NCBI RefSeq assembly: GCF_024298765.1 | Contig: NZ_CP101211.1 | Origin: Escherichia coli | Lineage (GTDB): Bacteria > Pseudomonadota > Gammaproteobacteria > Enterobacterales > Enterobacteriaceae | Strand: one strand, 5' to 3' | Length of the DNA stretch: 64,000 nt | Shown here: piece by piece, positions 4,532-39,046 of the stretch | How the letters are laid out: each line of letters begins with the position of its first letter | Position numbering within the stretch: position 1 is the first letter of the stretch | Translations under genes and position numbers: made by a program | The notes under the pieces: generated by a model | Databases searched by the model: none | What the model was told of the DNA's origin: nothing | Seen by the model: the letters and a program-made list of their open reading frames with translations, nothing else

Positions 4532-4715
4532 AGTGTCCGGGAACCGCTTAGCGGCTGAATGTAACCCGCAACAACGTTACGCATTGTTTTACTCACTGCA
4601 ATTTTCCATTTAAGTCTGTTTGTTCCACCAGCTGCTAACATCAGCGTTATTCATCCTGAGGTTTCGCCCGCGATTGACAGATCAGAGGCAGCATGGATGA
4701 AATTGCCAGAGTAGA

Positions 4716-4997: not shown

Positions 4998-5062
4998 TGC
5001 CCTGTTTCCCCTTGTCCTGAAAAAGTTACCGACCCGTCCGGATGGAGGGGTCGGTCAGAAAA

Positions 5063-16003: not shown

Positions 16004-16507
16004 TTATTGATAGTGTTTTATGTTCAGATAATGCCCGATGACTTTGTCATGCAGCTCCACCGATTTTGAGAACGACAGCGACTTCCGTCCCAGCCTTGCC
16101 AGATGTTGTCTCAGATTCAGATTATGTCGCTCAATGCGCTGAGTGTAACGCTTGCTGATAACGTGCAGCTTTCCCTTCAGGCGTGATTCATACAGCGGCC
16201 AGCCATCCGTCATCCATACCACGACCTCAAAGGCCGACAGCAGGCTCAGAAGACGCTCCAGTGTGGCCAGAGTGCGTTCACCGAAAACGTGCGCCACAAC
16301 TGTCCTCCGTATCCTGTCATACGCGTAAAACAGCCAGCGCTGACGTGATTTAGCACCGACGTAGCCCCACTGTTCGTCCATTTCAGCGCAGACAATCACA
16401 TCACTGCCCGGTTGTATGCGCGAGGTTACCGACTGCGGCCTGAGTTTTTTAAATGGCGGAAAATCGTGTTGAGGCCAACGCCCATAATGCGGGCTGTTGC
16501 CCGGCAT
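16004..16507 (-). CDS. insB: IS1 InsB
   Basis: matches IS1 InsB. Confidence 0.9.
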
Positions 16508-18369: not shown

Positions 18370-18981
18370 TTAGGAACTAATAATGATGGCCTGGTCAGTT
18401 TGAGGAAGCCGGTTTCCTCTGATAAATGCAGGGTGGTTTAAACGAGAAGAAGAAATGGTCATCGCCAGAAATGTCTCTTCACGCGAACGCAGAAATTCCC
18501 CCCATGAATAGGTTTCCCATACGTCGTGAGAAAGGTCGGATTCCTTTATGTACCGGGATTGCATTGTTGGCTCAAAATCGACAGGGGCTAAACTGTCATA
18601 GGATGGATGAACACGGTACCCCAATCCCTCCTCCGTCTGATGGTATGCATGTGCCAAAAGGACATCGTGGGAGACCAGGTCATAGTCGTTGTCCTGAACG
18701 AGCGTTTTTACGGTATGACTAATTTCCCCAAAGCCGTCTATTTCCCAGAGCGTTATCATTGTGAACTCAGCTAAAGTTCGTGGGCTCTTTACCAGAAAGC
18801 CATTTAATGCTCGTCGCCCCTTCAGCATGCCAACGTGGTAGGTCTTGTTGGGATAGGGTTTCATTGCCACCAGCGAATCAGCTTTAAGCTCAAGTGACAA
18901 TTCAGGGACAGACACGGACATGAGAGTACACTTGTTTTTCATATGGTGAAGAATACGTGGCACAAGATGCAGATACATCAT
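18370..18981 (-). CDS. hypothetical protein (203 aa)
   Basis: ORF. Confidence 0.5.
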   Translation of the reverse strand: MMYLHLVPRILHHMKNKCTLMSVSVPELSLELKADSLVAMKPYPNKTYHVGMLKGRRALNGFLVKSPRTLAEFTMITLWEIDGFGEISHTVKTLVQDNDYDLVSHDVLLAHAYHQTEEGLGYRVHPSYDSLAPVDFEPTMQSRYIKESDLSHDVWETYSWGEFLRSREETFLAMTISSSRLNHPAFIRGNRLPQTDQAIIISS

Positions 18982-19092
18982 TTTCTCCTTTTATGGATAT
19001 AACTGGCAGATCCTCAGCAGCATCAAAATAGTTAATAGACTTTTTTAATTGGTTAACCACTGTTGATTGACTTGTTTTATGTCTCTGAGAAA

Positions 19093-19659
19093 TTATTCGT
19101 TTTGTTTCTGTTCGTTATACTGCTCAAACCAGAAGACGACCGGTTTTACTACAATATGAAGCAAACCAAAACGTTCTGCGGTACGGAAATTCACGCTATA
19201 TGCGCGAGCCCGTTCAACCTGTTTGGTAATTTCATTTCTCATTCCTTCAACACTAAAAGCTCCTTTAAAAAGGTTGCAGGGAGCGCATGATGGAAATAAG
19301 TTTTCTATTGCATGCAGTTCAGGGTGCATAACCTTACCCGTACTTCGGGCAACATGAGTTACGCCGCTGCCGACCGGGGCTCTCACCAGTTCAAAGTCGC
19401 GTCGAACAGGCTCAACATGATCGGCATGCCACCCTTTTTCAGGAAGCTTGCAACCACAATAGGCACAACGCCCCCCAAATTTCATTCGCAGCTCAGCTCG
19501 CTGTATTTTAGAGATCTTATTTTTAGGTTTTGAGAACCTACCATCAGGTGATTCCGCTTTGGATAACTTTGCTGAGGGCTCAGGTAACTCAACTAAATTC
19601 CCGTTGATATTTATCACCTTGACCATATCATTTTCCGCCTTTACTAATCTCACGGGCAC
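19093..19659 (-). CDS. HNH endonuclease family protein (188 aa)
   Basis: CAYCGC...WHADHVEP...H...CAPCN arrangement typical of the HNH zinc-finger nuclease motif. Confidence 0.6.
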   Translation of the reverse strand: MPVRLVKAENDMVKVININGNLVELPEPSAKLSKAESPDGRFSKPKNKISKIQRAELRMKFGGRCAYCGCKLPEKGWHADHVEPVRRDFELVRAPVGSGVTHVARSTGKVMHPELHAIENLFPSCAPCNLFKGAFSVEGMRNEITKQVERARAYSVNFRTAERFGLLHIVVKPVVFWFEQYNEQKQNE

Positions 19660-20245: not shown

Positions 20246-20485
20246 TCAGTATTCCTCCTGAACCCCATTAGGCTCTGTTGTGATTTCATATTTAATACCG
20301 CCAGGTGCTCCCACAGCGTCCGCGACCGACTCACACAGCAGCGAGAGATCGTTGAGGGTCATTGGGTGTTCAATGTCCAGCGTGAAGAGTTTCCCGGCTT
20401 GCTTGGCGGCTGTCTTGTCAGCATGTTCAGCATTAAAAAGGTATACGGTGTGTTTTTCCTGAGCGGGGGTATTTTGATTTTGCAT
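20246..20485 (-). CDS. small conserved protein (PMTLNDLS...AVGxPGGxKY family)
   Basis: paralog of 14280..14504. Confidence 0.5.
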   Translation of the reverse strand: MQNQNTPAQEKHTVYLFNAEHADKTAAKQAGKLFTLDIEHPMTLNDLSLLCESVADAVGAPGGIKYEITTEPNGVQEEY

Positions 20486-20734: not shown

Positions 20735-23119
20735 TTATACGACCTGCCTGACCATCCTCATCAGAAGGCGGTTTAACAGTCCTTTCGCTGTCGGGCGATT
20801 GCTATCGACATAGTAAAAACCTGTTTTGGTCGTACCGTGAGCACTGCTCAGCACCCTCAGTTCCCAGATAACGTCACGGATAACGCCGCCATTTTCTGGC
20901 TTAAGGCATTCAGATAAATGGCGCATGAAACGAGCTCTTACGGCACGGTAATAGCGGAACTCCTCTGGCTGGTTAGTATTTTCTTTCACCCGGAGTCGCT
21001 GGTTACACAGAGTTAGAACTGCATCCATCATTCCCGCCTTCAGCTTCGCCTGGATCGCACCTTGTTGCTGTTCCCTCTCACCTTCGAGTAACGTTAAGAT
21101 TCTTTCTCCGAGTGCCGTCTTGTTGTGTACGTGCAACTGTACACAGGCAGCTACGCATGCCCAGAATCTGAACTTTTTTATCTGTCCACGCAATTTCCGG
21201 GCTACAACCTGACGGTATGCAGTATCGCTGAGTATTTTAAAACGCCGACTGGCAACCAGCTCTGGAAGCGACACTCTTTCGCCTATCCCCAGGCGGGAAA
21301 AGGTTTGTCCCCGTTGTGCGAGACGATGATAGACAGCGCCCTTCCCTTTTGAAATTCGGACCGCGCCATAACGAAGAAGATACTGAGCAGCAGTCGTTGG
21401 AGTAAACTCACCGTCAGCGATGCTCTGGCGTAACCCGTCGTATTCATGCCAGATAATCCAGGACGCCGTATCTTCTTCAACAGTCAGCTCATCCTCTTCC
21501 TCGAATGCCACGACGACAGAACTGCTCTCTCCGGTCTTTAGGCTACGTGAAGCCCTGGGGTCAGCCTGCCCGTCAAAATAGGTCATCAGCGGCAACGTAT
21601 CAGTCAGTCCATCATAAGCTGTACCGAACCGGCCTCCGGGCAGTTTCATCCAGAGTGGAGCTGGCATTGGTGTACGGGCCACAGGCAGCATGTCAGGCTC
21701 ATCCTCAAGAAGGTCCAGATCGGCCTCTTCCCAGACTCTGCGATAGATCTCAATTGCCCGAAACGGGCGAGGGTTGAAACAGTGCAACGACCAGAGGAAA
21801 TCAACGTGGATCACGTTTGCTTCATGTACAAGCCGAAATTGTGGCTCAGCCATACGACGGTTATAAGCCGTATCGTCCACCTCGCCGGAAAGTAGCTTTC
21901 TGCGATGCTTTGCCGCACGTCTGGCTTCAACATAATCAAGGCTGCAACAGACATGAAAAAGACGTTCAGTCAGGGACGAAGAAAAGATATTGGGTTGAAG
22001 ACGCACATACCCGCCTTCGAACACTTTACGACCGATATAATCCCGCAGGCTCCAGTCGTACTGGATCTTAGAAAGAAATCGCTGAAGACGACTTAGGCCT
22101 GCCTGATAACCATATTTCTCAGGGTCAGTGCGAAGGAGCGTTTCCATTGAATGGTCAACCCCTACGGCTGTGCAAAGCGAGCACCCATATCTAGCCCCAC
22201 AAGCTGAGGTTCGCGTGGGTTTCTCCGGCGACCAGATACACTCTCCGGTGGCGTCTTTATAAAGCGTTGCCAGGCTGAAGTTATCCGGCATAAAGCTTGG
22301 TAAAGGGAAGCGGGATTCGGAACCACAGGCCATTAGAAAAGACCAGATGTCCTGAGTGCGCCACTCCTTTACTGGATAGAGTTCACCACCGTGCTCAGTC
22401 AGGGTTACTTTCCTCGCCTGCCCTCCCATTTTGAGGATATTTCCGGCCCTTCGGGCACTTTCATCATCCCTGGAGCCCAGCATCAGGCATACCCTGCTTC
22501 GTACGGATGCCGGGGCGTTTTTTAGATAACGAGCTTTGGCCTTGCGCAGGGGGGCGATTTTGTAGTCGGTTGAGCACTGACGGGTTGAAGAATTAGTCCA
22601 GGTCGGAAGTCCACGTCCAGTCAGAATGCGGCCTACCCAGCTCTGCGTAAGAGACGGTTGGGCGACAAGGACTGTGACCGGTAGCTGGTGTTCAGCAATG
22701 AACATTCTAAGCTGGTTGAGAACCTGTGAAGCCTGATAGTGCATCTCAGGGTTTTCGATCAGCGTATCGGACATCTGAATGAAATGATGTTCGCTGATAT
22801 TTGTGCCGTTACGTACTGCCCTGATCAATGCCATCAGAAATAGGTGAAGAAGAGAATGGGAGTCTTTACCGCCACTGTATCCCACGCACATCGTCCATCC
22901 GTCCGTAATAGCCTGATAAATAGCAGATGTGGCTGACGTGACCAGAGAAGAAAGACTCACAGTCTCCTTTTCATCGGTATAGTTCAGATCGGCATCGGTT
23001 GTCAGGGTCTCCCAAACATCAGCCCATTTATCATGTTTCAAAATGGCAGCATTAGCCGCCTCAGGAAAAATAACTTCTGAGGGTAATTCAAGGAATGAGT
23101 CACTTTTTTCAATAAACAT
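20735..23119 (-). CDS. PAPS reductase-like PP-loop protein with long C-terminal extension (IbrA/DndC-like, 794 aa)
   Basis: PP-loop motif GYSGGKDS near N-terminus; size and architecture like IbrA-type PAPS-reductase/DUF3440 proteins. Confidence 0.7.
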   Translation of the reverse strand: MFIEKSDSFLELPSEVIFPEAANAAILKHDKWADVWETLTTDADLNYTDEKETVSLSSLVTSATSAIYQAITDGWTMCVGYSGGKDSHSLLHLFLMALIRAVRNGTNISEHHFIQMSDTLIENPEMHYQASQVLNQLRMFIAEHQLPVTVLVAQPSLTQSWVGRILTGRGLPTWTNSSTRQCSTDYKIAPLRKAKARYLKNAPASVRSRVCLMLGSRDDESARRAGNILKMGGQARKVTLTEHGGELYPVKEWRTQDIWSFLMACGSESRFPLPSFMPDNFSLATLYKDATGECIWSPEKPTRTSACGARYGCSLCTAVGVDHSMETLLRTDPEKYGYQAGLSRLQRFLSKIQYDWSLRDYIGRKVFEGGYVRLQPNIFSSSLTERLFHVCCSLDYVEARRAAKHRRKLLSGEVDDTAYNRRMAEPQFRLVHEANVIHVDFLWSLHCFNPRPFRAIEIYRRVWEEADLDLLEDEPDMLPVARTPMPAPLWMKLPGGRFGTAYDGLTDTLPLMTYFDGQADPRASRSLKTGESSSVVVAFEEEDELTVEEDTASWIIWHEYDGLRQSIADGEFTPTTAAQYLLRYGAVRISKGKGAVYHRLAQRGQTFSRLGIGERVSLPELVASRRFKILSDTAYRQVVARKLRGQIKKFRFWACVAACVQLHVHNKTALGERILTLLEGEREQQQGAIQAKLKAGMMDAVLTLCNQRLRVKENTNQPEEFRYYRAVRARFMRHLSECLKPENGGVIRDVIWELRVLSSAHGTTKTGFYYVDSNRPTAKGLLNRLLMRMVRQVV

Positions 23120-23291
23120 ATATTTTCCTGAACCACGGCATATGCTGCATCACTGATATTTTTATTAGAACTTTAAAATAACTACAGCGCAACCATTTAG
23201 CGAAATTATATTAAATCAAAATCACGCAAATTTAATTCTTAAATAGATTTAAAATAAAAACCCATTGTAATTTAATCTCCCAGCACAGCTA

Positions 23292-23741
23292 TTAGATATA
23301 GGTTGGTGGTGTAATAAAAGCCGTGACATTTGTTTTCAACTCAGACAGCGGAATTGAAGGAGTGTTAAGAGTCATGTCATCACCACAATGGCGTGGTAGA
23401 GCAGAAAGCTGAAATGAATCTTTCATCACCCTAATAACCGGGCATTCCGTACGTGCTGATGGCATTACTTCCCGCAGCATCGCTTCCTGCCTTGTGCTAT
23501 CGCTATGCTTATATTCATCCTGGTCTGTTATTTCTTGAATTTCATCTTCACCACAAAATGACCAGTTAGCGTCATAGAAGTAAAACTCAGTTAACTGAAG
23601 ATCGTTTTTTTTCACGTATGTCGCCAATTTGCGGATACGCTGTTCAAGCATTGTATCTATCCGTAAGGAAACACTTTGCGGAACATCACTTGCAAAGTCA
23701 TTGATGCAAACAACGGTAGATACTATGAATTTATTGGTCAT
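23292..23741 (-). CDS. hypothetical protein (149 aa)
   Basis: ORF directly upstream of the PAPS-reductase-like gene. Confidence 0.45.
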   Translation of the reverse strand: MTNKFIVSTVVCINDFASDVPQSVSLRIDTMLEQRIRKLATYVKKNDLQLTEFYFYDANWSFCGEDEIQEITDQDEYKHSDSTRQEAMLREVMPSARTECPVIRVMKDSFQLSALPRHCGDDMTLNTPSIPLSELKTNVTAFITPPTYI

Positions 23742-23792
23742 GGCAGGCTCCAGGCCACCGGGGGAACCGGTGGCTACGGTTATCAGGCAGGC

Positions 23793-24584
23793 TTATGCGC
23801 CGCAAAGGGTGTCAAGGGAAGGAAGAAGCTTGCTCAGCTTGTCGTAATCGAGCGGAGACAGTTCTGTAACGAGTTCGACCGAAAGACTGGTGTTGTCTTC
23901 TTCACTCAGAATATAGATTCCGTCTTCTGGCTCTTTTCCGGCACATGCCTTCAGTCGTCTGTTAACGACCTCCTGGGCTGAATCCGCTACGTCGCAGCTC
24001 AGGACATAGCTTGCCACATAGCTGCTCTCACCGTGGTAATGCGTCACTTTACACAGAGCATACTGGATACCGGCTTTGTGAGCCTCATTCATGAGACGAG
24101 AAAACTGACAGCCATCCTGGTAATAGTGGGTATCCTTTGTGACCAGAATAGTCATACCCCCAAATTCATCTGTCCGGCTTTTACTGCATGTAAATGCAGC
24201 AGTAATTGTTACCATTTCCGGGAGGTCGAATACCGACAGCACGGCAGTTGTGAGGCAAATTGCATGGTCAAGATCAATAGTCTCTCCATGAAAAACTGAC
24301 AGCCCACTGCTGTTAACTTCTGTTGCGAACGACAGTTCATAATTACAGTCTGGGCAGGATGGTTGCCCAAAGCTCGGCTCTGAAGGGTCATACTCAGGGT
24401 GGTTCTCAATAATACTGAGAATCAGCTTCTCAGTCAGAGAACAATCTGCCAGTGGCTTATCAAGCAAACGCTCACCTTCTGCAATTTCTGCTTCGGTAAC
24501 GAATGTGATTGCTTCTTGTGCCATTTTAGCCTGCTCCTGAGTGCAGGGAATAATAAACGACGCCAGAGTATAATTATCTGCCAC
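23793..24584 (-). CDS. hypothetical protein (263 aa)
   Basis: ORF; promoter-proximal element at 24651. Confidence 0.5.
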   Translation of the reverse strand: MADNYTLASFIIPCTQEQAKMAQEAITFVTEAEIAEGERLLDKPLADCSLTEKLILSIIENHPEYDPSEPSFGQPSCPDCNYELSFATEVNSSGLSVFHGETIDLDHAICLTTAVLSVFDLPEMVTITAAFTCSKSRTDEFGGMTILVTKDTHYYQDGCQFSRLMNEAHKAGIQYALCKVTHYHGESSYVASYVLSCDVADSAQEVVNRRLKACAGKEPEDGIYILSEEDNTSLSVELVTELSPLDYDKLSKLLPSLDTLCGA

Positions 24585-24650
24585 AGTTGACTCCTTGATT
24601 ATTTAATTAATGTATTTGATGAGAAGATCATAACAAACACACTACTACCA

Positions 24651-24666
24651 ACTAATAACCTGAAGT
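24651..24666 (-). promoter_or_regulatory. GGTTATTAGTT promoter-proximal element with TATGAT 17 bp downstream
   Basis: minus strand CTTCAGGTTATTAGTT-N17-TATGAT. Confidence 0.45.
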
Positions 24667-24754
24667 CGTTTTTTTAGAAAAAATATTAAGAAGAATATGA
24701 ACACCACCTCATCTTAAATTAATATTGTTCAGGATTAATATTCATTTTTGCAAA

Positions 24755-24780
24755 TAAAAACCGCCAGACGGCGGCTTTTA
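24755..24780. terminator. bidirectional intrinsic terminator
   Basis: stem CCGCC-agac-GGCGG flanked by A-run and T-run. Confidence 0.5.
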
Positions 24781-24810
24781 TAAAGAGGGAAATATCATTG
24801 GAAGCTGAAA

Positions 24811-25068
24811 TTACTTCACGGCAGGCCGACAAATTACGCGACTGCTGTGAGCTGAAGCGAAACTTGTAGAGGAAACTATAATCACCTTTTCTAAGTCGTC
24901 GGCACTGTCGGCAATATGATGCCGAAAAGCCTCCTCTGCATCACCAGGGGAATCGGCTTCGACCGGGTAGGCCTGATCATCATCATCAAACATAATGCGC
25001 CCGGAAATGAGATAAAGTCGGTTCAAATCTGGCGTCGCTGCGCTCGTGCTTCGTTCGTTCAGATTCAT
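24811..25068 (-). CDS. hypothetical acidic protein (85 aa)
   Basis: ORF. Confidence 0.4.
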   Translation of the reverse strand: MNLNERSTSAATPDLNRLYLISGRIMFDDDDQAYPVEADSPGDAEEAFRHHIADSADDLEKVIIVSSTSFASAHSSRVICRPAVK

Positions 25069-25133
25069 TTTTTCTCCGTCTGTTGCTCGTAAAAAGAATG
25101 ACGCCGGTTTAAAAGGCGTCGCCAGGGTTCAGG

Positions 25134-25460
25134 CTAAAACGCAGGGTTGCCATCGAGGAAGCTCATTGGCTGGCCAATAGCGGATGCCACCCTGAGAATT
25201 TCACCTGGTGTGGCATAGCGCAGCATTTCTGAGCGTCCAAATTTCTGATACTCATCTACTGACATCTTTCTCCACTCGGGGTGAGGATCTTTTCCGCACA
25301 GTGACCAGTTGCTTTCAGAGGAATCACGACGGAGAACGTACACATCAAGCGAGGCTGTAAGCCCGCTTCCATATCCCCGCTGCGCTACAATACGAACCTG
25401 AGAACCATCGTCGCGTTGCAACGTCTGGGTTAATTTCGTGATAGGATCCTGAGAATGCAT
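25134..25460 (-). CDS. hypothetical protein (108 aa)
   Basis: ORF; promoter-proximal element at 25511 and palindrome at 25666 upstream. Confidence 0.45.
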   Translation of the reverse strand: MHSQDPITKLTQTLQRDDGSQVRIVAQRGYGSGLTASLDVYVLRRDSSESNWSLCGKDPHPEWRKMSVDEYQKFGRSEMLRYATPGEILRVASAIGQPMSFLDGNPAF

Positions 25461-25510
25461 GCCATTTACCTCGTTTTTAAAAGAATTACCGTAAGTAAAT
25501 GATACCGAAT

Positions 25511-25524
25511 CGAGAATTCTGGCT
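25511..25524 (-). promoter_or_regulatory. CCTATTAGCC promoter-proximal element with TATCAT 16 bp downstream
   Basis: variant of the GGTTATTAGCC element. Confidence 0.4.
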
Positions 25525-25665
25525 AATAGGTCAGAAGAAAAAATATTGCATATTTTTGAAGTGTAGGATAATGATTAGAATAAAATGGCCTGAATAAATC
25601 GTTAGCTTTAACTCTGCTTATTTCAGAAAAACTCTGAATTAGTAGTGATGGAAAACGACGCGGTG

Positions 25666-25678
25666 AAAAGTAACTTTT
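25666..25678. promoter_or_regulatory. AAAAGTAACTTTT palindrome copy
   Basis: exact 13-bp palindrome. Confidence 0.5.
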
Positions 25679-26302
25679 ACACCGCAATTCAGAAAAAAGT
25701 TTCAGTTAGTCACATTACGAATAACCCGGCTTACTTTCGCATGTGCGTTCCCCTGCATGTTAAAGTAAAGCCCTCCGGGCAGACTCGTCGCCCACTTAAC
25801 GCCTCGCTCAGCCATACGCTTCGGTGTTTCCAGCCAACCACGAGGAATATTGCCCGGAACGTTACCGATAACCCGTCAAATGCATGCTGCTACCCGGATG
25901 CCGCCGGGAATATCGCATTTGGATTCAACAATATGCATGACCTCAGATAAAGCACCATGCCGCTGGACATGATCGCCAATGTGCAACTCGATAGGAGAAG
26001 CCATTTCTGAATCTGACTTCATATCTGTCCACCTTTAATTTAGAAACCGTCTAAATTACCAAATTAGTTAATCCAACAACATCTGTATCACAACCATCAA
26101 TTTGTTTTTGTTGGGTCTATATCGTAGAAACAAGTGAATAATGAATACACTCGTTAATACAGACAACCGGAAATGAATGACTACCTGATTATCTCAGCGG
26201 TATATGCTAAGCCGTTAATATTGCCATTCTCTGGTGGAACCACTGCTAAATGAATAAACCGTTTGTCGCTTCAAACCACTTTATCAAAACCGTTAACTTG
26301 CA

Positions 26303-27553
26303 TTAAGTCCGATACAGTTCGGCGAGCTCATCCAGCATGGGGTTACTCTTATATCCCGGTGCGGCCGTAAAAAGGTTTCGGGAAATCGCCAGCCACTCCA
26401 TGATTTTGTCCGTCGCCAGCCAACGTCTGCCAAGTCGCTCGGCTGCGATGGGGACTTTATGCAAGCCAGCGAAGGGATCTACAACAAGATCTCCCGGCTC
26501 TGTCAAAAACTCAATCAGAAACGCTGCAAGCCTGGTAGGAGACGTTGCACCGTGCAGCGGAAAACCGAGCTCGCGGGCAATGGAATGGCAAAATCTCGTA
26601 TCAGCGCAGCTATTGCCGTAAAACAAAGTATTCTTGGGGATCGTTCCTTCTGTTTTATTTCCAAAGGAACCGCTTTTAAGCTGGTACGCCCCATCACCAT
26701 AAAAGGTCGTGCGATTTTCACCGCCTGCTGCCTGCAATTTTAGATGCTGGTCTGAATGCGGTTGTAGTACACGTAAGTTGTTTGAACGAACCTTACTCGC
26801 ATCATTGGTAAACCACAGCACAGGCTCATACGATGAGCAGAGCTGCACCCGTTGCTTACATGCCCAGTGCGTTGGCGATGGGGGCTTACTGCGATTCACC
26901 CACTGAAGCCTGTCCATGAGCTCAAGCCCCAGCTTGTCACATAATGCCAGTGTCAGACGCTCCAGATACAGAGAACGTGAAGGCCTACCCCTATTAAAGC
27001 TATCTTGAGTGATATTCAATGCCACACTTGCGCCCGGTACAAGCTGTTTCACGATCGGTTCGAGGATACGCAGAAGCCAGTCAATATAAGCCTGCTCGCC
27101 ACGCCCCCCTCCGTGCCCGTAGTCTCTTGAATTTCGAAGGAGGTAAGGTGGCGAGGTCAGGCAAAGATGAATTTGCTCGGTGATATTGCTGAAGAAGGCA
27201 TAGGCGTTTCCAAAAACCGATGCCCCAAGAGAAGTTGAGAAACCGACAACACAGAGCTTTTCCCATGACTCATGCAGGTTTGTTTTCGTCTTAGAGGCGT
27301 ATCTCCAGACGCCCCGTTTTTCTGGAACGCGTTCGATGACCCCGGCCTGACGGAGAGTCTGCTGAAACCAGCGAACCTTATGTTTGACGCCGCTGGTTCT
27401 GGTTTTATCTGACCCAAATTCTTTCAGTTCGTGCAATTCGGCATCCGACATGCCAGTTTTACGCTGCACTTCGCGATAAAGCTCGTCGTTGGTCAACGGC
27501 GATTCGGAGGCAGCGTAGATATGCGCAATTAAGTCCGTATTAATCGTACTCAT
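26303..27553 (-). CDS. orphan DNA methyltransferase, N4/N6 beta-class (416 aa)
   Basis: TSPPY catalytic motif and C-terminal DPFAG...ATD SAM-binding motif; no adjacent restriction endonuclease recognised. Confidence 0.8.
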   Translation of the reverse strand: MSTINTDLIAHIYAASESPLTNDELYREVQRKTGMSDAELHELKEFGSDKTRTSGVKHKVRWFQQTLRQAGVIERVPEKRGVWRYASKTKTNLHESWEKLCVVGFSTSLGASVFGNAYAFFSNITEQIHLCLTSPPYLLRNSRDYGHGGGRGEQAYIDWLLRILEPIVKQLVPGASVALNITQDSFNRGRPSRSLYLERLTLALCDKLGLELMDRLQWVNRSKPPSPTHWACKQRVQLCSSYEPVLWFTNDASKVRSNNLRVLQPHSDQHLKLQAAGGENRTTFYGDGAYQLKSGSFGNKTEGTIPKNTLFYGNSCADTRFCHSIARELGFPLHGATSPTRLAAFLIEFLTEPGDLVVDPFAGLHKVPIAAERLGRRWLATDKIMEWLAISRNLFTAAPGYKSNPMLDELAELYRT

Positions 27554-27721: not shown

Positions 27722-28342
27722 TTAATCAGCCTCAAGATTCTGGAACTCAATGAGCTTTTGCTCACACTCCTCCCTGCCCCACGATCCCTGCCAGTCACAG
27801 ATGTCCCGGTACTTACTTTCCAGCTTATCCATCTGTGCGAGATTAGCTGTTGCGAAGTCTGTCCATATGTCATGCCAGCAAGCGTTGTACGTAACGCCAG
27901 CTGGTGGACAATACTCCATTGCATCAGCATTAATAATTTCAACGCGAAGATCGGTTGCAAACGAGGCTGCAACGAGGTTAATAACATCCTGTTCTTTTTC
28001 GATTACCGTGACATGGGTTACATCGTCTTTCTGAAGAATGGCGTGGAGCACCATACCAAGACCAAGACCATTAATGAGCACCCGCCCGGTGGCTCGCTCT
28101 ATAAAATCCTGGCAGGTTCGGATCTCCATCGGGGTATTGGACATCACCACATCCCAGCCGTTGGACAAGCGGCGATATCTACCGGGCGGGATAAACTCAT
28201 CTGTATTACCAGTACACTCGGCACGAAGGGCGAGGGTCAGCGCCTTATCTGTGGTAATTTCGAAAGTGTCCAGTTTCCAAGTTCCGGACTTGCCGTCTTT
28301 AACGGGTAAATCAGAAAAGCAGCTCTTCATCGAGGCAACCAA
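27722..28342 (-). CDS. hypothetical protein, possible Rossmann-fold methyltransferase-like (206 aa)
   Basis: VLINGLGLGMV resembles SAM-binding motif I; otherwise unassigned. Confidence 0.4.
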   Translation of the reverse strand: MVASMKSCFSDLPVKDGKSGTWKLDTFEITTDKALTLALRAECTGNTDEFIPPGRYRRLSNGWDVVMSNTPMEIRTCQDFIERATGRVLINGLGLGMVLHAILQKDDVTHVTVIEKEQDVINLVAASFATDLRVEIINADAMEYCPPAGVTYNACWHDIWTDFATANLAQMDKLESKYRDICDWQGSWGREECEQKLIEFQNLEAD

Positions 28343-30115: not shown

Positions 30116-31297
30116 CTAAGACCAGCGGTAATACTTAAAGTAGTCCTCATTTACAGCCAAAAACTCCCTTAAACCGTTCATTAATCCCTTTTCAAACGCT
30201 GTAACGATAAACCGGTATCCGTCCAGTGTTTCAATGTAGTAGATCCCGCCCGGTGTTATTCCAACATGCAACACCTCGGCTGTCATCATAAACTGGCCTT
30301 CCGGAAAATCATGCGACAGGTATATAAAACCCGTCGTGGCCGGTGCGGGTGTGGCATTCACTAAGACACCGTTAAACTGCTGCCCGTGCCTCGCCGGTAC
30401 AAGCTCACTTCCCCTGGTTGACTTATCGAGCAGCCCCTTAACATCTTTTTGCTCTTTAGATGAGGTATAGCCCCGCACATCACTCCCATCACCTGGGCGA
30501 GAGCCGGTGCCGACATGTGCAAGACGACGGTAAGCGCTGCGCATATTGATGTGGCAGGATGCCCCGGCTCTACCCTGAAGCCTTACGCCAAAATCTTCGC
30601 AAAGTAATAAAATCTGACGTAGCTGGTGTTCATACACGGACGCAGAAAGTGAAAGGTTGAAACTGGAAAAGGTCAGTTCTAAAACCTTTTCCCGTTTGTC
30701 ATTGAAATGTGCTTCCAGCCTGATGATTGGCTTTTCCGACATTGCAAAAGCTTTGTCCGTTGCTCTGTACCGGCATTCATCTCCGAAACATTCTTCAACA
30801 ACGCTGGCTATAACCGTGTCGTGATCGCCATCTTCCGGAGCTGGCACAAAGATTTCAAATTGTGCCGGTGTCTCCGGCTCCAGCAGAACGGGATATAAAC
30901 GCGGAGAATTAAGCAATGCGCATTCAGAATTAATGAGCTTAACCCAGGCGCTTTTGTCGTCCGGATCCTTAAGCTGCTGTCCAAGGTTATCGCAAAAGTC
31001 TACTATCTGACGGGTATGCTCATCCGTGACTGCACAGATCAGGTTAAGACCATGCGTGGCCATACTCAATTCCCGGGTTCGGGACTGGGAATTGATCGAC
31101 CAGGGGTTAAGTGAAAGCGAAATAGGGCTTATGGAAGGGACGACCGTCTCATTCTGCAAATCTGTAAGCTGGCAGTTCGCAGTAGGCTTCGGGGAAAGGG
31201 TACTAAATATGTAACTTGCCTGTTGTTTAGTACTGGCCTGGATATAAAACATCGCGTCCATGCTTGTATCCCGGGATGAAATTGAAAATAGCTTCAT
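30116..31297 (-). CDS. hypothetical protein (393 aa) immediately downstream of HigB-like gene
   Basis: starts 9 bp after the higB-like stop; no HTH recognised. Confidence 0.5.
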   Translation of the reverse strand: MKLFSISSRDTSMDAMFYIQASTKQQASYIFSTLSPKPTANCQLTDLQNETVVPSISPISLSLNPWSINSQSRTRELSMATHGLNLICAVTDEHTRQIVDFCDNLGQQLKDPDDKSAWVKLINSECALLNSPRLYPVLLEPETPAQFEIFVPAPEDGDHDTVIASVVEECFGDECRYRATDKAFAMSEKPIIRLEAHFNDKREKVLELTFSSFNLSLSASVYEHQLRQILLLCEDFGVRLQGRAGASCHINMRSAYRRLAHVGTGSRPGDGSDVRGYTSSKEQKDVKGLLDKSTRGSELVPARHGQQFNGVLVNATPAPATTGFIYLSHDFPEGQFMMTAEVLHVGITPGGIYYIETLDGYRFIVTAFEKGLMNGLREFLAVNEDYFKYYRWS

Positions 31298-31305
31298 TTT
31301 TAACC

Positions 31306-31602
31306 TTAATGGATGAGCGATTTATAGTCATGTGCTGACAAATGGACATTATGTGCGCCATCATTCCATTCAAAGAATAATCGATACTTAGAGTTTACTC
31401 GAATGGAGGAATAACGGTTTGACGTCATTCTTAAGCGTTCATAACGCAAGCTGTTGGATAATAACTCCCGCTCACTCTGGACATTATCCAGCGTTTCGAG
31501 TCGACACAGAATCGCGTTAATAATTTCAGAAGGAATACCTGCCGTTGTTTTTCCATTACGGAAGAACTTTTCAAGCCGTCTGTCTTTAAATGAATGGATC
31601 AT
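31306..31602 (-). CDS. HigB-family (plasmid killer) toxin-like protein (98 aa)
   Basis: FKDRRLEKFF...IPSEI...SIRVNSKYRLFFEW.DG aligns with Rts1 HigB (FKDKWLEQFY...SIRVNKQYRLIFKW.DG). Confidence 0.7.
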   Translation of the reverse strand: MIHSFKDRRLEKFFRNGKTTAGIPSEIINAILCRLETLDNVQSERELLSNSLRYERLRMTSNRYSSIRVNSKYRLFFEWNDGAHNVHLSAHDYKSLIH

Positions 31603-32556: not shown

Positions 32557-34947
32557 TTATGTTTGAGGGAATTCTATAGCAAATGTGGCCGTGCCAGATT
32601 GACCACTTACAGCGGGAGTAACGGGATACGTGCGCTCTTCACCATTACCAAGATCCAGTGACAGCGATTTAGTTTCACCAGGCTGGACCGTAACTCCGGC
32701 AACCGTAACGCCGAACTGGGCATTTTTCTGAACAGTCAGGGTTCCGTTTAACTGTCCGGTAATGATAGAACCGTCCTGACGCCGCAACACACTGGTTCGG
32801 ATGATGGCCAGCGGCGTGTTGTCCGTTGCTTTCAGTGCTACGGCTGTGGCCAGCGTCTTGAGATTATCCAGCATAATCAGATTCGCAGGCTGGTAGGTAA
32901 AATTAAGCGTTTTAGTGGTCCGGTTACCTGATTCGTCAATAGCCAGTGCCTCCAGATGATACATCTGTCCCGATTCGTCAGTGTTGGGGAAGATTCTGGG
33001 GTATTCCGGAATAAAGACATCCTTGGATAACGGCGTGAATGCCAGGGTGACCTTTTCAGAGTTAGGTCCACCAGCGAGCTGAAGCGATGTCAGGGAAGCA
33101 TCCCCAGAGGCATCAGTAACGCTTATGCGAAGGTTCTCAAGCCCTTTAACCAGTTTTCCTTCTGCGTCTGCGCCATTAAAACTGAACGCGATAACCGGAA
33201 GCGTTGAGTCAATTTTCAGCGGTGCATTAAGCGTTTTGGTTCCGGTGTTTCCAACAAGATCCGTGGCAGAGACGCTAACCACCGTATAATCCCCGTCCGG
33301 TAGACCAGCGTATGAGAAGGTGGCGTTTTTGGTTTTATAATCGCTTTCACTGACGGTCACAGGCTTCAGCGTGAAAGGTTCCCCCCGGGCATTTTTAAGG
33401 GTGGCTTCGAAAACTTTGGTATCCCAGTAGCTGATGTTCCAGGCGTTGACGCGATCATTATCGGTGGCCGTCATAGTGATTGTCTTGGAGGCCTTGTTTA
33501 CCTGAGCGACATTAACCACCGGTGGGTTGTTATCCCAGATAACCGTAAAATTACCAGCAAGCGCATCGAATATGCTGTCACCATCTTTTCCCGAGTAAAG
33601 GTGCAGATACTCAAATCCTTTGTCACTGGTGTAGTTGAAGTTAACCGTCATCTCGCATGAACTTTGTCCGATAGGTATAGTGCAGAACCAGGCTGCATTT
33701 TTTACCGTTCTGAACTTTTGCACGTATGGTCGGGGTTCAGCGGTTACCTTTATGCGGCTAATGGTGGCGGTTTTAACGCTGATTGAGGCCTGAGTTAACC
33801 ACTCACTGGTATCACTCCGGTACATCTCTTTAGCCACTATCTTCGGGGCTATTTCCATCGCCGGGGCTGGAGTGAAGTTGAGGGAGTTATGATGAATTCG
33901 TCTTACTCCTCCTGCCAGAGTCTGGAATTCATGATAAGTATCCCCCACATTGGGATATATGTATTTGAAAGTATAAATATTATAAGTGCTATCGGACGTC
34001 TGGAAATTCGAGTCCGCCCAGCCATATTTGGAACCGTTAACAGCAGTAAAGTCACTTTTTTTCCTTAATACCCGTACGGAAATAGGGTTCTGGAAGACGG
34101 TCATGCCAGACTGATAAGTGACCCATGATCCGGTAGTGGCGTCCTGCACCTGGATGATATCGTCAGGCTTAACCCGATCAATTACGCTTCGGCGGCTTAG
34201 TTCGATCCTGTTTCCCGCTTTGTCATAAAGGTAGATCCCCACTTTATATTCAGAGCGGTTTTCCGGTGCCAGGGCATTGCTGCTTGCGTCGGCGACTTGA
34301 ACGGTTACGCTACCTTCCACTGTATTAATTTCCGCTGGCTTTTTACGCTCCACTCCAGCGGCATCGGTTATGAAATATTCAGCATTAGCAAGCCCGGAAC
34401 CTTTATCACTCAGTCCATTAAAGACCAGTGCCTGGACGCTGGCGTACTGCATACCGGCTGGTACTGAAGTGAAGATCGCTTCGCTGCCAAAGTTCCACCC
34501 GTTTCTCGTATAACTTATGGTACCCGTTGCCGGAGGCGTTCGGTCAATTGCAAGCGGGTAATCCTGCCGGGAGACCTCCTTCCCTTGCAAGTCGGTAATC
34601 ACCTCTCTGAGGGTGAAGCTATCTTCTCCCATCGCTGGTACGGTCAGAGTCTTGCCGTAATAATCAAAGCCTGTCGAAGATGTGGTACGGTCATCTACGG
34701 TAACCAGGCTGCTTTTCGTGCTCCAGATGAGGCTCCCGTCACTTTTCAGCAGACTGAGCGTAATATAACGGTCCAGACCGGAAATAACGGCAACGTCAAA
34801 GCTCGTTACCGGATTAATCCATACGGATGCAGGCGATACGGTCTTTTTAACGTTCAGGGTATCTTTAAAGCTGAATTCTGCGATTTCAGCGGAAGCTCCT
34901 GCGCTGAAACCTGCAAATGCAATAAGCAGGGCTAGTTTGATTTTCAT
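32557..34947 (-). CDS. secreted Ig-like repeat protein, paralog 1 (~796 aa)
   Basis: Sec signal peptide MKIKLALLIAFAGFSAGASA; repeated D-x-T-P-P domain starts; paralog of 40500..42920 and 48582..51038; start chosen at the internal Met with AGGAGA RBS. Confidence 0.7.
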   Translation of the reverse strand: MKIKLALLIAFAGFSAGASAEIAEFSFKDTLNVKKTVSPASVWINPVTSFDVAVISGLDRYITLSLLKSDGSLIWSTKSSLVTVDDRTTSSTGFDYYGKTLTVPAMGEDSFTLREVITDLQGKEVSRQDYPLAIDRTPPATGTISYTRNGWNFGSEAIFTSVPAGMQYASVQALVFNGLSDKGSGLANAEYFITDAAGVERKKPAEINTVEGSVTVQVADASSNALAPENRSEYKVGIYLYDKAGNRIELSRRSVIDRVKPDDIIQVQDATTGSWVTYQSGMTVFQNPISVRVLRKKSDFTAVNGSKYGWADSNFQTSDSTYNIYTFKYIYPNVGDTYHEFQTLAGGVRRIHHNSLNFTPAPAMEIAPKIVAKEMYRSDTSEWLTQASISVKTATISRIKVTAEPRPYVQKFRTVKNAAWFCTIPIGQSSCEMTVNFNYTSDKGFEYLHLYSGKDGDSIFDALAGNFTVIWDNNPPVVNVAQVNKASKTITMTATDNDRVNAWNISYWDTKVFEATLKNARGEPFTLKPVTVSESDYKTKNATFSYAGLPDGDYTVVSVSATDLVGNTGTKTLNAPLKIDSTLPVIAFSFNGADAEGKLVKGLENLRISVTDASGDASLTSLQLAGGPNSEKVTLAFTPLSKDVFIPEYPRIFPNTDESGQMYHLEALAIDESGNRTTKTLNFTYQPANLIMLDNLKTLATAVALKATDNTPLAIIRTSVLRRQDGSIITGQLNGTLTVQKNAQFGVTVAGVTVQPGETKSLSLDLGNGEERTYPVTPAVSGQSGTATFAIEFPQT

Positions 34948-35081
34948 GGGTTGTCTCCTGATCAGGTTCCCCATGATACTTTTTCAGTGTTCGAGATCTT
35001 TTCGGGAAAATAGCTAATTTTAATGTTTTTCTTTTCTGCCCGGCGGGACTTGTTTTGTTTACGTAAATGCAAAAATACAAG

Positions 35082-38204: not shown

Positions 38205-38284
38205 CCAAGGCCAAATCTGAATTGTCCTGTTTAAGTAACCAACCCGCTGCCGCCAGGCGGGTAAATCCTCTTAATGGAGTTTTA

Positions 38285-39046
38285 ATGCAAATCTCAACTG
38301 AAGTTCTGAACGTCTTATCTCGCTGCCGTGCTGAAGGGAACTTTCTTTTCCTGGCCGACCAGCTCGACCGCAGCATTTATGTTAAGACAAACAAAGTGCT
38401 GGAAGCTGCCGGTGGCAAATGGAACCGAAAAGAGCAGGCACATATTTTTACGGCGGATGCAGCTGAGCGTATCGAGCAAATCATTCTGACAGGTTCGGTC
38501 GACATCCCACGTGATTTGTTCAATTTCTTCCCTACCCCTGAGAATTTAGTCACAGATATGGTTCTACGCGCTGAACCAGCTGCCGGGGAACGTGTTCTGG
38601 AGCCTGAGTTTGGTGATGGCCGCATTCTGAAAGCCTTAAAACTGGCGGCTCCGGATGCATTGATTACCGGGATCGAATTGAACGATGAGCGATTCCTTGC
38701 AGTGAAGAACGATAGTGTCCTTAGCACAGGGGCCGAGCTGGTGCATACCGACTTTCTTGGGTACCAGCCCGATGAAACTTTTGATGTTATCGTTATGAAT
38801 CCACCATTCCTTAAACGCTCTGACGTTAAACATGTCATGCATGCCATCGCAATGCTCGCTAAGCGAGGTCGCTTACAGGCCATTCTGTCAGCTGGGGTAT
38901 TGTTCCGGGAAGACACACTGACAAAAGCGCTCAGGGAGCGAGTCAAACAACTTGGCGGACAAATTTCGCCTCTTCCGGATGATACATTTAGGGAGTCCGG
39001 AACAAAGGTCAAAACAGCCCGCCTTGAAATTGATCTTCGCCGCTAA
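38285..39046 (+). CDS. orphan DNA methyltransferase (NPPF motif, likely N6-adenine)
   Basis: VIVMNPPF catalytic motif; start taken at the internal ATG with GGAG RBS. Confidence 0.7.
   Translation: MQISTEVLNVLSRCRAEGNFLFLADQLDRSIYVKTNKVLEAAGGKWNRKEQAHIFTADAAERIEQIILTGSVDIPRDLFNFFPTPENLVTDMVLRAEPAAGERVLEPEFGDGRILKALKLAAPDALITGIELNDERFLAVKNDSVLSTGAELVHTDFLGYQPDETFDVIVMNPPFLKRSDVKHVMHAIAMLAKRGRLQAILSAGVLFREDTLTKALRERVKQLGGQISPLPDDTFRESGTKVKTARLEIDLRR

What the first reader, a model, noticed from the sequence alone, without database searches (positions are those of the whole stretch)
20735..25678. PAPS-reductase-like (IbrA/DndC-like) 794-aa protein in an operon of unknowns, without the usual adjacent ParB-like partner
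The 794-aa protein has the PP-loop GYSGGKDS motif near its N-terminus and a long C-terminal extension, like IbrA-type PAPS-reductase/DUF3440 proteins. Those are usually encoded next to a ParB-like partner (IbrB). Here the upstream genes in the same palindrome-headed operon are four unrelated hypotheticals (108, 85, 263 and 149 aa), and the ParB-like genes are elsewhere. PAPS-reductase-fold enzymes in mobile elements are linked to DNA modification (for example phosphorothioation) and to phage-host conflict, so this may be a variant modification or anti-defence module.
Basis: partly seen in the sequence, partly recalled or inferred. Interest (0 to 1): 0.6.

Follow-up and report, generated by a model that had tools for sequence, protein, structure and literature searches.

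The report
Solitary DndC-like sulfur enzyme on plasmids
A large, well conserved gene on IncHI2 resistance plasmids encodes a relative of the enzyme that puts sulfur into the DNA backbone, but it stands alone without any of that enzyme's usual partners, belongs to a widespread uncharacterised family of conjugative plasmids and islands, and its target is still unknown.

Summary
The window is IncHI2 plasmid backbone, identical to pG17-1 (NZ_CP079936.1). The 794-aa ORF (20735-23119, minus strand) is real. It has the PP-loop G80-YSGGKDS-87 and a PAPS-reductase fold. It is DndC-like, not IbrA-like. It aligns to a genuine DndC with every DndC motif, including all five conserved cysteines, but scores far below the curated DndC cut-off.

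It belongs to a distinct long family with a conserved core at residues 60-640. The family is found in 2795 of 72,556 PLSDB plasmids (IncHI2, IncHI1, IncC and others) and in ICE-like islands, and is almost absent from phages. Across 24 loci no neighbouring gene family recurs. There is no DndD/DndE, no other P-loop ATPase partner, and no ParB.

The "five-gene operon" is not one unit. A strong intrinsic terminator separates the 108- and 85-aa genes from the rest. The four small genes are shared only with IncHI1.

About a third of IncHI2 plasmids have lost the catalytic half, so the gene is accessory.

Best reading: a stand-alone, Fe-S-dependent, ATP-using sulfurtransferase that thiolates nucleic acid. 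The most likely target is plasmid DNA, as an orphan protective modification. This is unproven.

The parts
20735..23119 (-). 794-aa solitary DndC-like PP-loop/Fe-S sulfurtransferase homologue (RefSeq WP_000469466.1, annotated 'PAPS reductase family protein')
22859..22882 (-). PP-loop motif G80-Y-S-G-G-K-D-S87 (ATP pyrophosphatase signature)
   Evidence: S82, G84, D86 and S87 are invariant and K85 is at least 90% conserved in 137 family members. The motif aligns to GYSGGKDS of a genuine DndC.
22574..22576 (-). Codon of Cys182 in the R-x-C-(S/T)-x-x-x-K motif, the first of five conserved cysteines
   Evidence: C182 and K187 are invariant. The motif aligns to RWCTERLK of DndC.
22172..22240 (-). 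Cysteine-rich segment C294 ... C307-G-A-R-Y-G-C313-S-L-C316 (Fe-S ligands plus the DndC-type cysteine pair)
   Evidence: C313, C316, R310 and G312 are invariant; C294 and C307 are at least 90% conserved. The segment aligns to GEC...SCGNSRFGCWVC of DndC. The meaning of the three Fe-S cysteines plus a cysteine dyad is taken from PMC10853773.
21938..22924 (-). Region homologous to DndC (residues 66-394)
   Evidence: BLASTP gives 32% identity over residues 66-334 at E 1e-26. hhalign of the family profile against DndC gives probability 100%, E 2e-43, query 73-394 against DndC 30-341.
21200..21937 (-). Family-specific conserved region (residues 395-640), not aligned to DndC; candidate substrate-binding module
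   Evidence: Alignment occupancy is 0.73-1.0 up to residue 640. Conserved D395, E398, F428, P486, G504, G585. Modelled with high confidence. No informative fold match.
20738..21199 (-). Variable, basic, all-helical C-terminal tail (residues 641-794)
23120..23291 (-). 172-bp AT-rich intergenic region upstream of the DndC-like gene; probable own promoter region
   Evidence: Sequence. No stable single-strand structure, z +1.2. No promoter passed the simple consensus scan here, so a promoter is inferred, not shown.
23292..23741 (-). 149-aa hypothetical protein (acidic, pI 4.8); IncHI-specific neighbour
   Evidence: No family hit. Orthologue only in IncHI1. pN 0.25 against pS 0.60.
23793..24584 (-). 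263-aa hypothetical protein (very acidic, net -26, 11 Cys); IncHI-specific neighbour
   Evidence: No family hit. Orthologue only in IncHI1. Charge. pN 0.25 against pS 0.75.
24754..24781 (-). Intrinsic terminator that splits the presumed operon
   Evidence: Terminator scan. Sequence. Fold -16.5 kcal/mol, z -4.75.
24811..25068 (-). 85-aa acidic hypothetical protein (separate upstream transcription unit)
25134..25460 (-). 108-aa hypothetical protein (separate upstream transcription unit)
   Evidence: A homologue also occurs about 7 kb from a truncated family member in a Piscinibacter contig.
25656..25691 (-).
   Evidence: Sequence. Fold -11.6 kcal/mol, z -2.7. It lies downstream of the 48-aa ORF at 25876-26022 annotated in RefSeq.

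Best explanation
The 794-aa protein is a catalytically intact, stand-alone member of the DndC branch of PP-loop ATP pyrophosphatases. It is carried as an accessory gene in the backbone of conjugative elements.

Shown: it has the PP-loop, the DndC-type set of five conserved cysteines (three Fe-S ligands plus a cysteine pair), a confident PAPS-reductase-like fold, and a further 245-residue family-specific conserved region. It has no conserved partner gene anywhere in the family.

Inferred mechanism: a host cysteine desulfurase (IscS) loads sulfur onto the protein. The protein uses ATP to adenylate an oxygen of a nucleic-acid substrate and replaces it with sulfur. The family-specific C-terminal region would take over the substrate binding that DndD/DndE supply in Dnd systems.

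The most likely substrate is the plasmid's own DNA backbone, giving phosphorothioate-type marks. These would act like the orphan methyltransferases encoded around it, making incoming or resident plasmid DNA harder to restrict.
For: Identity. DndC models match at E 6e-34 to 4e-38. A genuine DndC from a dndBCDE-desulfurase cluster aligns at 32% identity with all motifs in register. The profile alignment has probability 100%, E 2e-43.

Catalytic integrity. S82, G84, D86, S87, C182, K187, R217, E220, R224, Y287, R310, G312, C313 and C316 are invariant, and K85, C294 and C307 are at least 90% conserved in 137 diverse members. pN 0.15 against pS 0.74 versus IncHI1.

Solitary. In 24 loci no neighbouring family recurs in more than 3. 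Contexts are arrays of small unknown ORFs.

Mobile-element link. 2795 plasmid records, 2158 of them conjugative. SPI-7-type DnaB is present in three distant loci. Only 8 weak hits in 50,697 phage records.

Setting. Neighbouring ORFs match DNA-methyltransferase models (26303-27553) and HNH-endonuclease models (19093-19659). Further ORFs match methyltransferase models at 27722-28342, 38222-39046 and 56156-57847, or are annotated as Dam (59607-60440).

From the literature: IscS can replace DndA, and DndC chemistry is PP-loop plus 4Fe-4S plus a cysteine dyad (PMC10853773).
Against: Every characterised phosphorothioation system needs a P-loop ATPase and a DNA-recognition partner: DndD/E, SspB/C or BrxC (PMC12914056; PMC10853773; PMC12707154). 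None is present here.

The protein scores far below the curated DndC cut-offs: 118 against 290 bits, and 130 against 536 for PRK06850.

The family-specific region has no recognisable DNA-binding fold.

About a third of IncHI2 records (331 of 990) lack an intact gene. A large sublineage has replaced the catalytic half, so any benefit is conditional.

No experimental report of sulfur in DNA of IncHI2 or IncC hosts was found.

Whether the gene lies in the early-entering region is unresolved.
Confidence: 0.4

Rival explanations
1. The same chemistry is aimed at RNA or a small molecule. The enzyme would thiolate a host or plasmid tRNA/RNA (as TtcA, TtuA and NcsA do) or make a thio-metabolite, tuning host physiology for the plasmid rather than marking DNA.
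Against: Sequence similarity to DndC (E 1e-38) is many orders of magnitude stronger than to TtcA (E 1.6e-3). The DndC-specific cysteine arrangement is kept. No THUMP, PUA or other RNA-binding domain was found. The neighbourhood is DNA-oriented: methyltransferases and an HNH endonuclease.
Confidence: 0.2
2. It works with a partner encoded elsewhere. Candidates are one of the plasmid's distant ParB-like proteins, an unlinked plasmid ATPase, or the recipient's own DndD/DndE. In the last case the plasmid would acquire the host's phosphorothioate pattern and escape DndFGH-type restriction.
For: Three ParB-like paralogues lie in the same window, and a ParB-family gene lies 4 kb from the Burkholderia homologue. 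Known DndC needs partners. Only +/-8 kb around each homologue was examined.
Against: No partner family recurs near homologues in 24 loci. No IbrA-type C-terminal domain was found. IncHI2 and IncC hosts such as E. coli K-12-type strains mostly lack dnd genes (general knowledge, not tested). A 245-residue conserved extension absent from DndC suggests a self-contained protein.
Confidence: 0.15
3. It is a non-modifying anti-defence or decoy protein. It would keep the DndC fold to bind and sequester host factors (IscS, DndD/E, or a phosphorothioate-sensing nuclease) rather than to catalyse sulfur transfer.
For: It sits among small acidic proteins typical of anti-restriction regions. It is dispensable in many plasmids.
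Against: Invariant catalytic residues across more than 130 members that share only 22-30% identity argue for enzymatic activity, not mere binding.
Confidence: 0.07
4. It is an ordinary assimilatory PAPS reductase (CysH), as the database name suggests.
For: The RefSeq name. The fold matches PAPS/APS reductases.
Against: No CysH equivalog appears among the NCBIfam matches at E <= 0.1. Pfam PAPS_reduct matches only weakly, at E 3.7e-5. The protein is roughly three times the length of the solved PAPS/APS reductase chains it matches (203-227 aa). It has the DndC cysteine set. It is carried in plasmid accessory regions.
Confidence: 0.02

Closest known systems
DndC (DptC), the sulfurtransferase of DndABCDE DNA phosphorothioation systems (NCBIfam TIGR03183)
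   Same: PP-loop GYSGGKDS; R-x-C-T/S-x-x-x-K; G-E-C; C-G-x-R-F/Y-G-C-x-x-C; that is, all five conserved cysteines. 32% identity over about 270 residues. The profile alignment covers DndC residues 30-341.
   Different: 118 bits against a curated cut-off of 290. No DndD, DndE, DndB or DndA nearby, here or in 23 other loci. It is 794 aa against about 486. Residues 395-640 are conserved in the family but do not align to DndC. It is carried by conjugative elements rather than defence islands.
BrxP (BREX type 4) and SspD (SspABCD), the other sulfur-inserting enzymes of PAPS-reductase type
   Same: PP-loop PAPS-reductase-type domain. BrxP model matches at E 4.7e-6.
   Different: Much weaker match than to DndC, and no SspD model hit. 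BrxP lacks the DndC cysteine dyad and carries other domains (PMC12839542). BrxP and SspD work with BrxC and SspC ATPases (PMC12914056), which are absent here.
IbrA/YbdN-type PAPS-reductase proteins paired with ParB-like IbrB/YbdM
   Same: PAPS-reductase fold and PP-loop; common in mobile elements.
   Different: No IbrA-type C-terminal domain (DUF3440, recalled from memory) was detected in the protein or in 137 relatives. No adjacent ParB. PHROG 'PAPS reductase' families match only weakly, E 3.5e-13 to 9e-9. The family is nearly absent from phages.
CasCysH, the cysH-like accessory protein of plasmid-borne type IV-B CRISPR-Cas systems
   Same: A PP-loop, PAPS-reductase-like protein on plasmids of unknown function, suspected of modifying nucleic acids (PMC8175902).
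   Different: CasCysH lacks the catalytic cysteines and is tied to csf genes. This protein keeps all of the cysteines, and no csf genes are annotated nearby. Direct sequence comparison was not done.
[4Fe-4S]-dependent tRNA thiolases TtuA, NcsA and TtcA
   Different: Sequence similarity is marginal: TtcA at E 1.6e-3 over 49 residues. The cysteine motifs differ.
Orphan DNA methyltransferases of plasmid establishment and anti-restriction regions
   Same: A single-gene modification enzyme in the backbone of a conjugative plasmid, next to such methyltransferases. IncC dcm genes help the plasmid cross restriction barriers (PMC7498323).
   Different: The chemistry is different. No demonstrated modification or protective effect. 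Its position relative to the leading end of transfer is unresolved.

Membership tests
DndC (Dnd phosphorothioation sulfurtransferase) | PP-loop ATP pyrophosphatase motif SGGxDS | tested here: met
   G80-YSGGKDS-87. Invariant S82, G84, D86, S87 in 137 relatives. In register with a genuine DndC.
DndC (Dnd phosphorothioation sulfurtransferase) | Three Fe-S-ligand cysteines plus a distinct cysteine dyad (definition from PMC10853773) | tested here: met
   Five conserved cysteines C182, C294, C307, C313, C316 align one-to-one with the cysteines of Ruegeria DndC. Which three bind the cluster is not determined.
DndC (Dnd phosphorothioation sulfurtransferase) | Whole-protein score above the curated NCBIfam TIGR03183 cut-off | tested here: not met
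   117.6 bits against a cut-off of 290.4; PRK06850 129.9 bits against 536.
DndC (Dnd phosphorothioation sulfurtransferase) | Gene neighbourhood with DndD-type ABC/SMC ATPase and DndE (and often DndB, DndA) | tested here: not met
   None is annotated within 20 kb. No PADLOC Dnd, Ssp or Brx hits in the neighbours or in ten further window ORFs. No recurrent neighbour family in 24 loci. A genuine dndBCDE cluster serves as positive control.
DndC (Dnd phosphorothioation sulfurtransferase) | Homology over the full DndC length, including its C-terminal third | tested here: inconclusive
   hhalign covers DndC 30-341 of 486. One PADLOC DndC model aligns to query residue 474.
DndC (Dnd phosphorothioation sulfurtransferase) | Produces phosphorothioate linkages in DNA | not testable with these tools
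   Needs LC-MS/MS or iodine-cleavage mapping.
IbrA/YbdN-type PAPS reductase with ParB-like partner | IbrA-type C-terminal domain (DUF3440; recalled from memory) | tested here: not met
   Pfam scans of the protein and of 137 relatives return PAPS_reduct plus only sporadic matches to unrelated families in at most one member each; no DUF3440.
IbrA/YbdN-type PAPS reductase with ParB-like partner | Adjacent or fused ParB/Srx-like gene | tested here: not met
BrxP (BREX type 4) | Best match to BrxP and linkage to brxC, pglZ and brxL | tested here: not met
   BrxP E 4.7e-6 against DndC 4e-38. No BREX genes nearby.
CysH (assimilatory PAPS/APS reductase) | Match to CysH equivalog models | tested here: not met
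   No CysH family among NCBIfam hits at E <= 0.1. Only the fold is shared.
Leading-region anti-defence island of conjugative plasmids (Samuel & Burstein, PMC11541004) | Located in the first-entering DNA next to oriT, on the transferred strand, with single-strand promoters | tested here: inconclusive
   The gene lies about 30 kb from the mobI-oriT region, on the relaxase side, and is transcribed toward it (mobI lies next to oriT in R27 and SXT per PMC10838148). The direction of transfer for MOBH plasmids was not found in the papers read. The upstream 415 nt fold somewhat better than shuffles (z -2.9) but without one long hairpin. No Rfam match.

The most novel reading that the evidence does not exclude
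This family is a single-polypeptide, partner-independent nucleic-acid thiolation enzyme. It would be a self-sufficient DNA phosphorothioation (or related sulfur) 'orphan modifier' that conjugative plasmids and ICEs of clinical importance (IncHI1, IncHI2, IncC) use to protect their DNA in new hosts. Its family-specific 245-residue domain would replace the DndD/DndE scanning machinery.
Probability: 0.25. Interest if true: 0.8.

Novelty: new variant of a known kind. Interest (0 to 1): 0.55.

Why it matters
Every known route to sulfur in the DNA backbone (Dnd, Ssp, BREX type 4) needs an ATPase and a DNA-recognition partner. Surveys of phosphorothioation genes have even required such a partner in the neighbourhood (PMC12914056), which filters out proteins like this one.

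This DndC relative is catalytically intact, strongly conserved and always solitary. It is present in about 4% of sequenced plasmids, including the main IncHI2, IncHI1 and IncC carriers of mcr, NDM and ESBL genes. Either it is a new minimal way of thiolating nucleic acids, or the DndC scaffold has been put to a new use.

If it marks plasmid DNA, it would be an unrecognised epigenetic layer that affects restriction evasion, plasmid host range and sequencing-based methylome studies. It could be tested directly with existing strains and mass spectrometry.

If it proves inert or redundant, as its loss in a third of IncHI2 plasmids might suggest, it is one more accessory backbone gene.

Tried and rejected

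2. PDB sequence search found only the FAD synthase PAPS domain (E 0.007). No DndC structure is available.

3. Foldseek against AFDB50 returned only uncharacterised family members and a few proteins labelled DndC. No functionally annotated neighbour emerged.

4. An Rfam scan of the whole window found nothing.

5. I tested whether the 'palindrome' or the upstream intergenic DNA looks like a single-strand promoter. The hairpin is small. The 415-nt region has z -2.9 but no dominant long stem. The 172 bp before the gene are unstructured. This is not convincing.

6. The search for related loci with the 137-sequence alignment failed because no stretch was conserved enough. A 30-sequence subset worked but gave only 19 loci.

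7. Nine literature searches and eleven papers read (one further look-up, PMC4241021, was not held) turned up no study of this gene in IncHI2, R27, IncC or Rts1, and no description of solitary DndC homologues.

8. I considered whether the basic C-terminal tail is a family-wide nucleic-acid-binding feature and rejected it. The tail is variable, with a median length of 44 aa, and tails of 60 aa or more have median net charge 0.

9. The four small upstream proteins as functional partners: rejected as a family-level association, because they are shared only with IncHI1. A lineage-specific role cannot be excluded.

Full report
WHERE THE WINDOW COMES FROM. The 4.9-kb region is 100% identical to several hundred IncHI2 plasmids of Escherichia, Salmonella, Enterobacter and Klebsiella. 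The coordinates fit the last 64 kb of pG17-1 (NZ_CP079936.1, 264,084 bp; MOBH relaxase, MPF-F), so a window position corresponds to the record position minus 200,084. The Tra1 genes mobI, mobH (relaxase) and traD lie at record 190.8-201 kb, just left of the window. repHI2 lies at window 46386-47474. From about 1.2 kb to 37 kb the window is mostly small, unannotated genes on the minus strand, interspersed with DNA methyltransferases, an HNH endonuclease, toxin genes and IS elements.

THE OBSERVATION. The 794-aa ORF at 20735-23119 (-) exists and carries G80-YSGGKDS-87. Pfam detects PAPS_reduct at residues 78-264, E 3.7e-5. The upstream ORFs of 149, 263, 85 and 108 aa are present. They have no hits in NCBIfam, PADLOC or PHROGs, and the two larger ones have none in Pfam.

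All of them are real genes by comparison with IncHI1. Nonsynonymous divergence is 0.15 for the 794-aa gene and 0.22-0.35 for the small ones, against saturated synonymous divergence of 0.53-0.83.

The operon claim fails. A textbook intrinsic terminator lies between the 85-aa and 263-aa genes: a GC stem followed by a U-run, -16.5 kcal/mol, z -4.75. A 172-bp AT-rich, unstructured spacer precedes the 794-aa gene. The 'palindrome' at about 25656-25691 is a small bulged hairpin with z -2.7. It lies about 185 nt downstream of a 48-aa ORF annotated in RefSeq.

WHAT THE PROTEIN IS. The best family matches are DndC models. PADLOC DndC gives 4e-38, and one of its models covers residues 63-474. NCBIfam TIGR03183 gives 6e-34 and PRK06850 gives 1e-37. 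BrxP is far weaker at 5e-6, TtcA is marginal, and no CysH equivalog appears.

Both NCBIfam scores fall far below the curated cut-offs: 118 against 290 bits, and 130 against 536. The protein is therefore a relative of DndC, not a DndC equivalog.

As a positive control I fetched a genuine DndC from a dndB-C-D-E-cysteine desulfurase cluster on a Ruegeria plasmid. It aligns at 32% identity over query residues 66-334. GYSGGKDS, R-x-C-T/S-x-x-x-K, G-E-C, S-C-G and R-F/Y-G-C-x-x-C are all in register. The family profile aligns to DndC residues 30-341 with probability 100% and E 2e-43. Nothing beyond query residue 394 aligns.

According to the Aravind-lab reappraisal, DndC is defined by a PP-loop, a 4Fe-4S centre held by three cysteines, and a distinctive cysteine dyad (PMC10853773). 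That makes five cysteines, which is what is conserved here.

THE FAMILY. An exhaustive HMMER search of 1.84 billion representatives found 1082 clusters at E < 1e-3 and 232 at E < 1e-30. The top 150 mostly align over query residues of about 55 to 610-640; a minority are shorter fragments.

In an alignment of 137 members that share only 22-30% identity with the query, these residues are invariant: S82, G84, D86, S87, C182, K187, R217, E220, R224, Y287, R310, G312, C313, C316. These are at least 90% conserved: K85, C294, C307, D322, S324, R359, R364, D395, E398, F428, P486, G504, G585. Column occupancy is high from residue 60 to 640 and collapses afterwards. The family therefore has a core about 245 residues longer than the part shared with DndC, plus a variable tail.

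The C-terminal 319 residues, modelled separately (pLDDT 89.7), match only generic helical bundles. In this protein the tail segment 632-794 carries net charge +15, but that is not a family trait. AFDB neighbours are all uncharacterised 'PAPS reductase domain' proteins, the closest from Salmonella Typhi.

CONTEXT ACROSS THE FAMILY. Homologues occur in 2795 of 72,556 PLSDB plasmids, of which 2158 are predicted conjugative.
- IncHI2 carries copies at 98-100% identity.
- IncHI1 carries a 75% identical copy with the same nine-gene synteny.
- IncC carries a 47% identical copy, three small genes downstream of a dcm cytosine methyltransferase.
- Homologues are also found in Providencia, Morganella, Vibrio, Burkholderia and Pseudomonas plasmids.
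- Chromosomal homologues lie in arrays of small genes with no Pfam hit.
- Three distant loci also carry an SPI-7-type DnaB, a hallmark of integrative conjugative elements.
- Only 8 weak hits occur in 50,697 phage records, and the best of those is a Salmonella Typhimurium record of 127.7 kb whose match is the same as in IncC plasmids, not a phage.

I predicted ORFs in 24 loci and clustered all neighbours by BLASTP. Apart from the DndC-like protein itself, no family occurs in more than three loci. The four small upstream genes of the finding are shared only with IncHI1. No Dnd, Ssp or BREX partner was found in ten further ORFs of the window. The three ParB-like ORFs of the window are at least 14 kb away. 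Being solitary is therefore a property of the family.

DISPENSABILITY. Of 990 plasmid records that carry the gene's DNA, 659 hold at least 80% of it in one piece. Most of the rest keep only nucleotides 931-2385 (residues 311-794) at about 98% identity. In one such plasmid the catalytic half and the upstream genes are replaced by a 1091-aa P-loop NTPase-fold gene and a 109-aa gene. The gene is thus accessory, although it is strongly constrained wherever it is intact.

HOW IT MOST LIKELY WORKS. Shown: an intact DndC-type active site, a solitary state, and restriction to conjugative elements. Inferred: sulfur comes from a host cysteine desulfurase. IscS can replace DndA. The enzyme then adenylates an oxygen of its substrate and replaces it with sulfur, and the family-specific region 395-640 supplies substrate binding.

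DNA is the favoured substrate for two reasons. DndC is by far the closest relative. The gene also sits among orphan DNA-modification genes, and IncC dcm genes in the equivalent region are reported to help cross restriction barriers (PMC7498323).

Against this, all characterised phosphorothioation systems need an ATPase and a DNA-recognition partner. No DNA-binding fold could be assigned to the extension. I put 0.4 on nucleic-acid (most likely DNA) thiolation by the protein on its own. RNA or small-molecule thiolation gets 0.2, dependence on an unlinked or host partner 0.15, a non-catalytic decoy 0.07, and true CysH function 0.02.

LEADING REGION. mobI lies next to oriT in R27 and SXT (PMC10838148), so the IncHI2 oriT should be near record 190.1-190.8 kb. 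The gene is about 30 kb away on the relaxase side and is transcribed toward oriT. That orientation is the one expected if the transferred strand were the template. However, I could not establish the direction of transfer for MOBH plasmids from the papers read, and I found no convincing single-strand promoter. Membership in a 'leading-region anti-defence island' is therefore undecided.

COMPARISON AND NOVELTY. The protein works most like DndC but is not a DndC. It is not IbrA-like, BrxP-like or CysH. It also differs from the plasmid-borne CasCysH of type IV-B CRISPR systems, which has lost the cysteines (PMC8175902).

The gene is annotated in RefSeq and UniProt as a 'PAPS reductase family protein', so its existence is not new. 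The searchable literature held no functional study of it and no description of solitary DndC homologues. A recent survey of phosphorothioation genes explicitly required a neighbouring P-loop NTPase, which excludes this family by design. I rate it a new variant of a known kind, interest 0.55. It is a clear, testable anomaly in clinically important plasmids, but there is no direct evidence for any activity, and the gene is often lost.

Noticed in passing
window 26303-27553 (-), 27722-28342 (-), 38222-39046 (+), 56156-57847 (-), 59607-60440 (+): At least five methyltransferase-like genes lie in one 64-kb backbone stretch: a 416-aa ORF matching Type II and adenine-specific DNA methyltransferase models, a 206-aa SAM-methyltransferase-like ORF, a 274-aa HemK/Erm-like methyltransferase, a DUF4942 protein with MADS/MTase-like hits, and a Dam-family methylase. 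None has an obvious cognate nuclease.
   Followed up: partly
window 5063-6247 (-), 58095-59258 (-), 62469-63524 (-): Three paralogous ParB/Spo0J-like proteins (394, 387 and 351 aa) all score below the partition-protein cut-off (29-34 bits against 58). Their roles are unknown, and none is next to the DndC-like gene.
   Followed up: partly
window 23793-24584 (-): The 263-aa neighbour is extremely acidic (net charge -26, pI 4.4) and has 11 cysteines, including a C-P-D-C pair. The neighbouring 85-, 149- and 79-aa proteins are also acidic (pI 4.6-4.8). This composition recalls DNA-mimic anti-restriction proteins, but there is no homology to support that.
   Followed up: partly
L031 (NZ_CP071024.1) 2081-5890, replacing window about 22190-25700: In a large IncHI2 sublineage, mostly from Enterobacter and Citrobacter with many human or hospital isolates, the 5' third of the DndC-like gene and the upstream small genes are replaced by a 1091-aa 'P-loop NTPase fold' gene plus a 109-aa gene. 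The remaining 3' part is annotated as a hypothetical protein.
   Followed up: partly
window 18370-19659 (-): An HNH endonuclease (188 aa; PHROG 2118 at E 2e-55; weak PtuB-like hits) and a DUF6012 protein lie just downstream. They are conserved in the same order in IncHI1, where the HNH gene is as constrained as the DndC-like gene (pN 0.15).
   Followed up: partly
window 32557-34974 (-), 40500-42920 (+), 48582-51038 (-): Three genes of about 805-818 aa annotated as 'Ig-like domain-containing protein' surround the repHI2 replication gene (46386-47474).
   Followed up: no
window 24811-25460 (-) and L030 881-1255: The 108-aa protein has a homologue about 7 kb from a truncated DndC-like match in a Piscinibacter genome. 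This is the only hint of any association outside IncHI plasmids, and one locus is too little to interpret.
   Followed up: no
window 20246-20485 (-) and L009 10110-10334 / 16208-16363: The 79-aa acidic protein just downstream of the DndC-like gene has two paralogous copies in the IncHI1 locus.
   Followed up: no
window 30116-31297 (-) and 31300-31600 (-): A 393-aa gene is annotated 'flavin reductase family protein' but had no NCBIfam or PADLOC hit. It lies next to a RelE/ParE-family toxin gene. The annotated length of the flavin reductase gene differs between IncHI2 records (948 against 1146 nt).
   Followed up: no
PADLOC model PDLC03333 ('Type II methyltransferase'): Residues 65-334 of the protein match positions 35-301 of a 544-position model labelled as a Type II methyltransferase (E 7.5e-23). 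This suggests that DndC-like domains fused to DNA methyltransferases exist in REBASE-derived data. No such fusion was seen among the 137 family members scanned.
   Followed up: no
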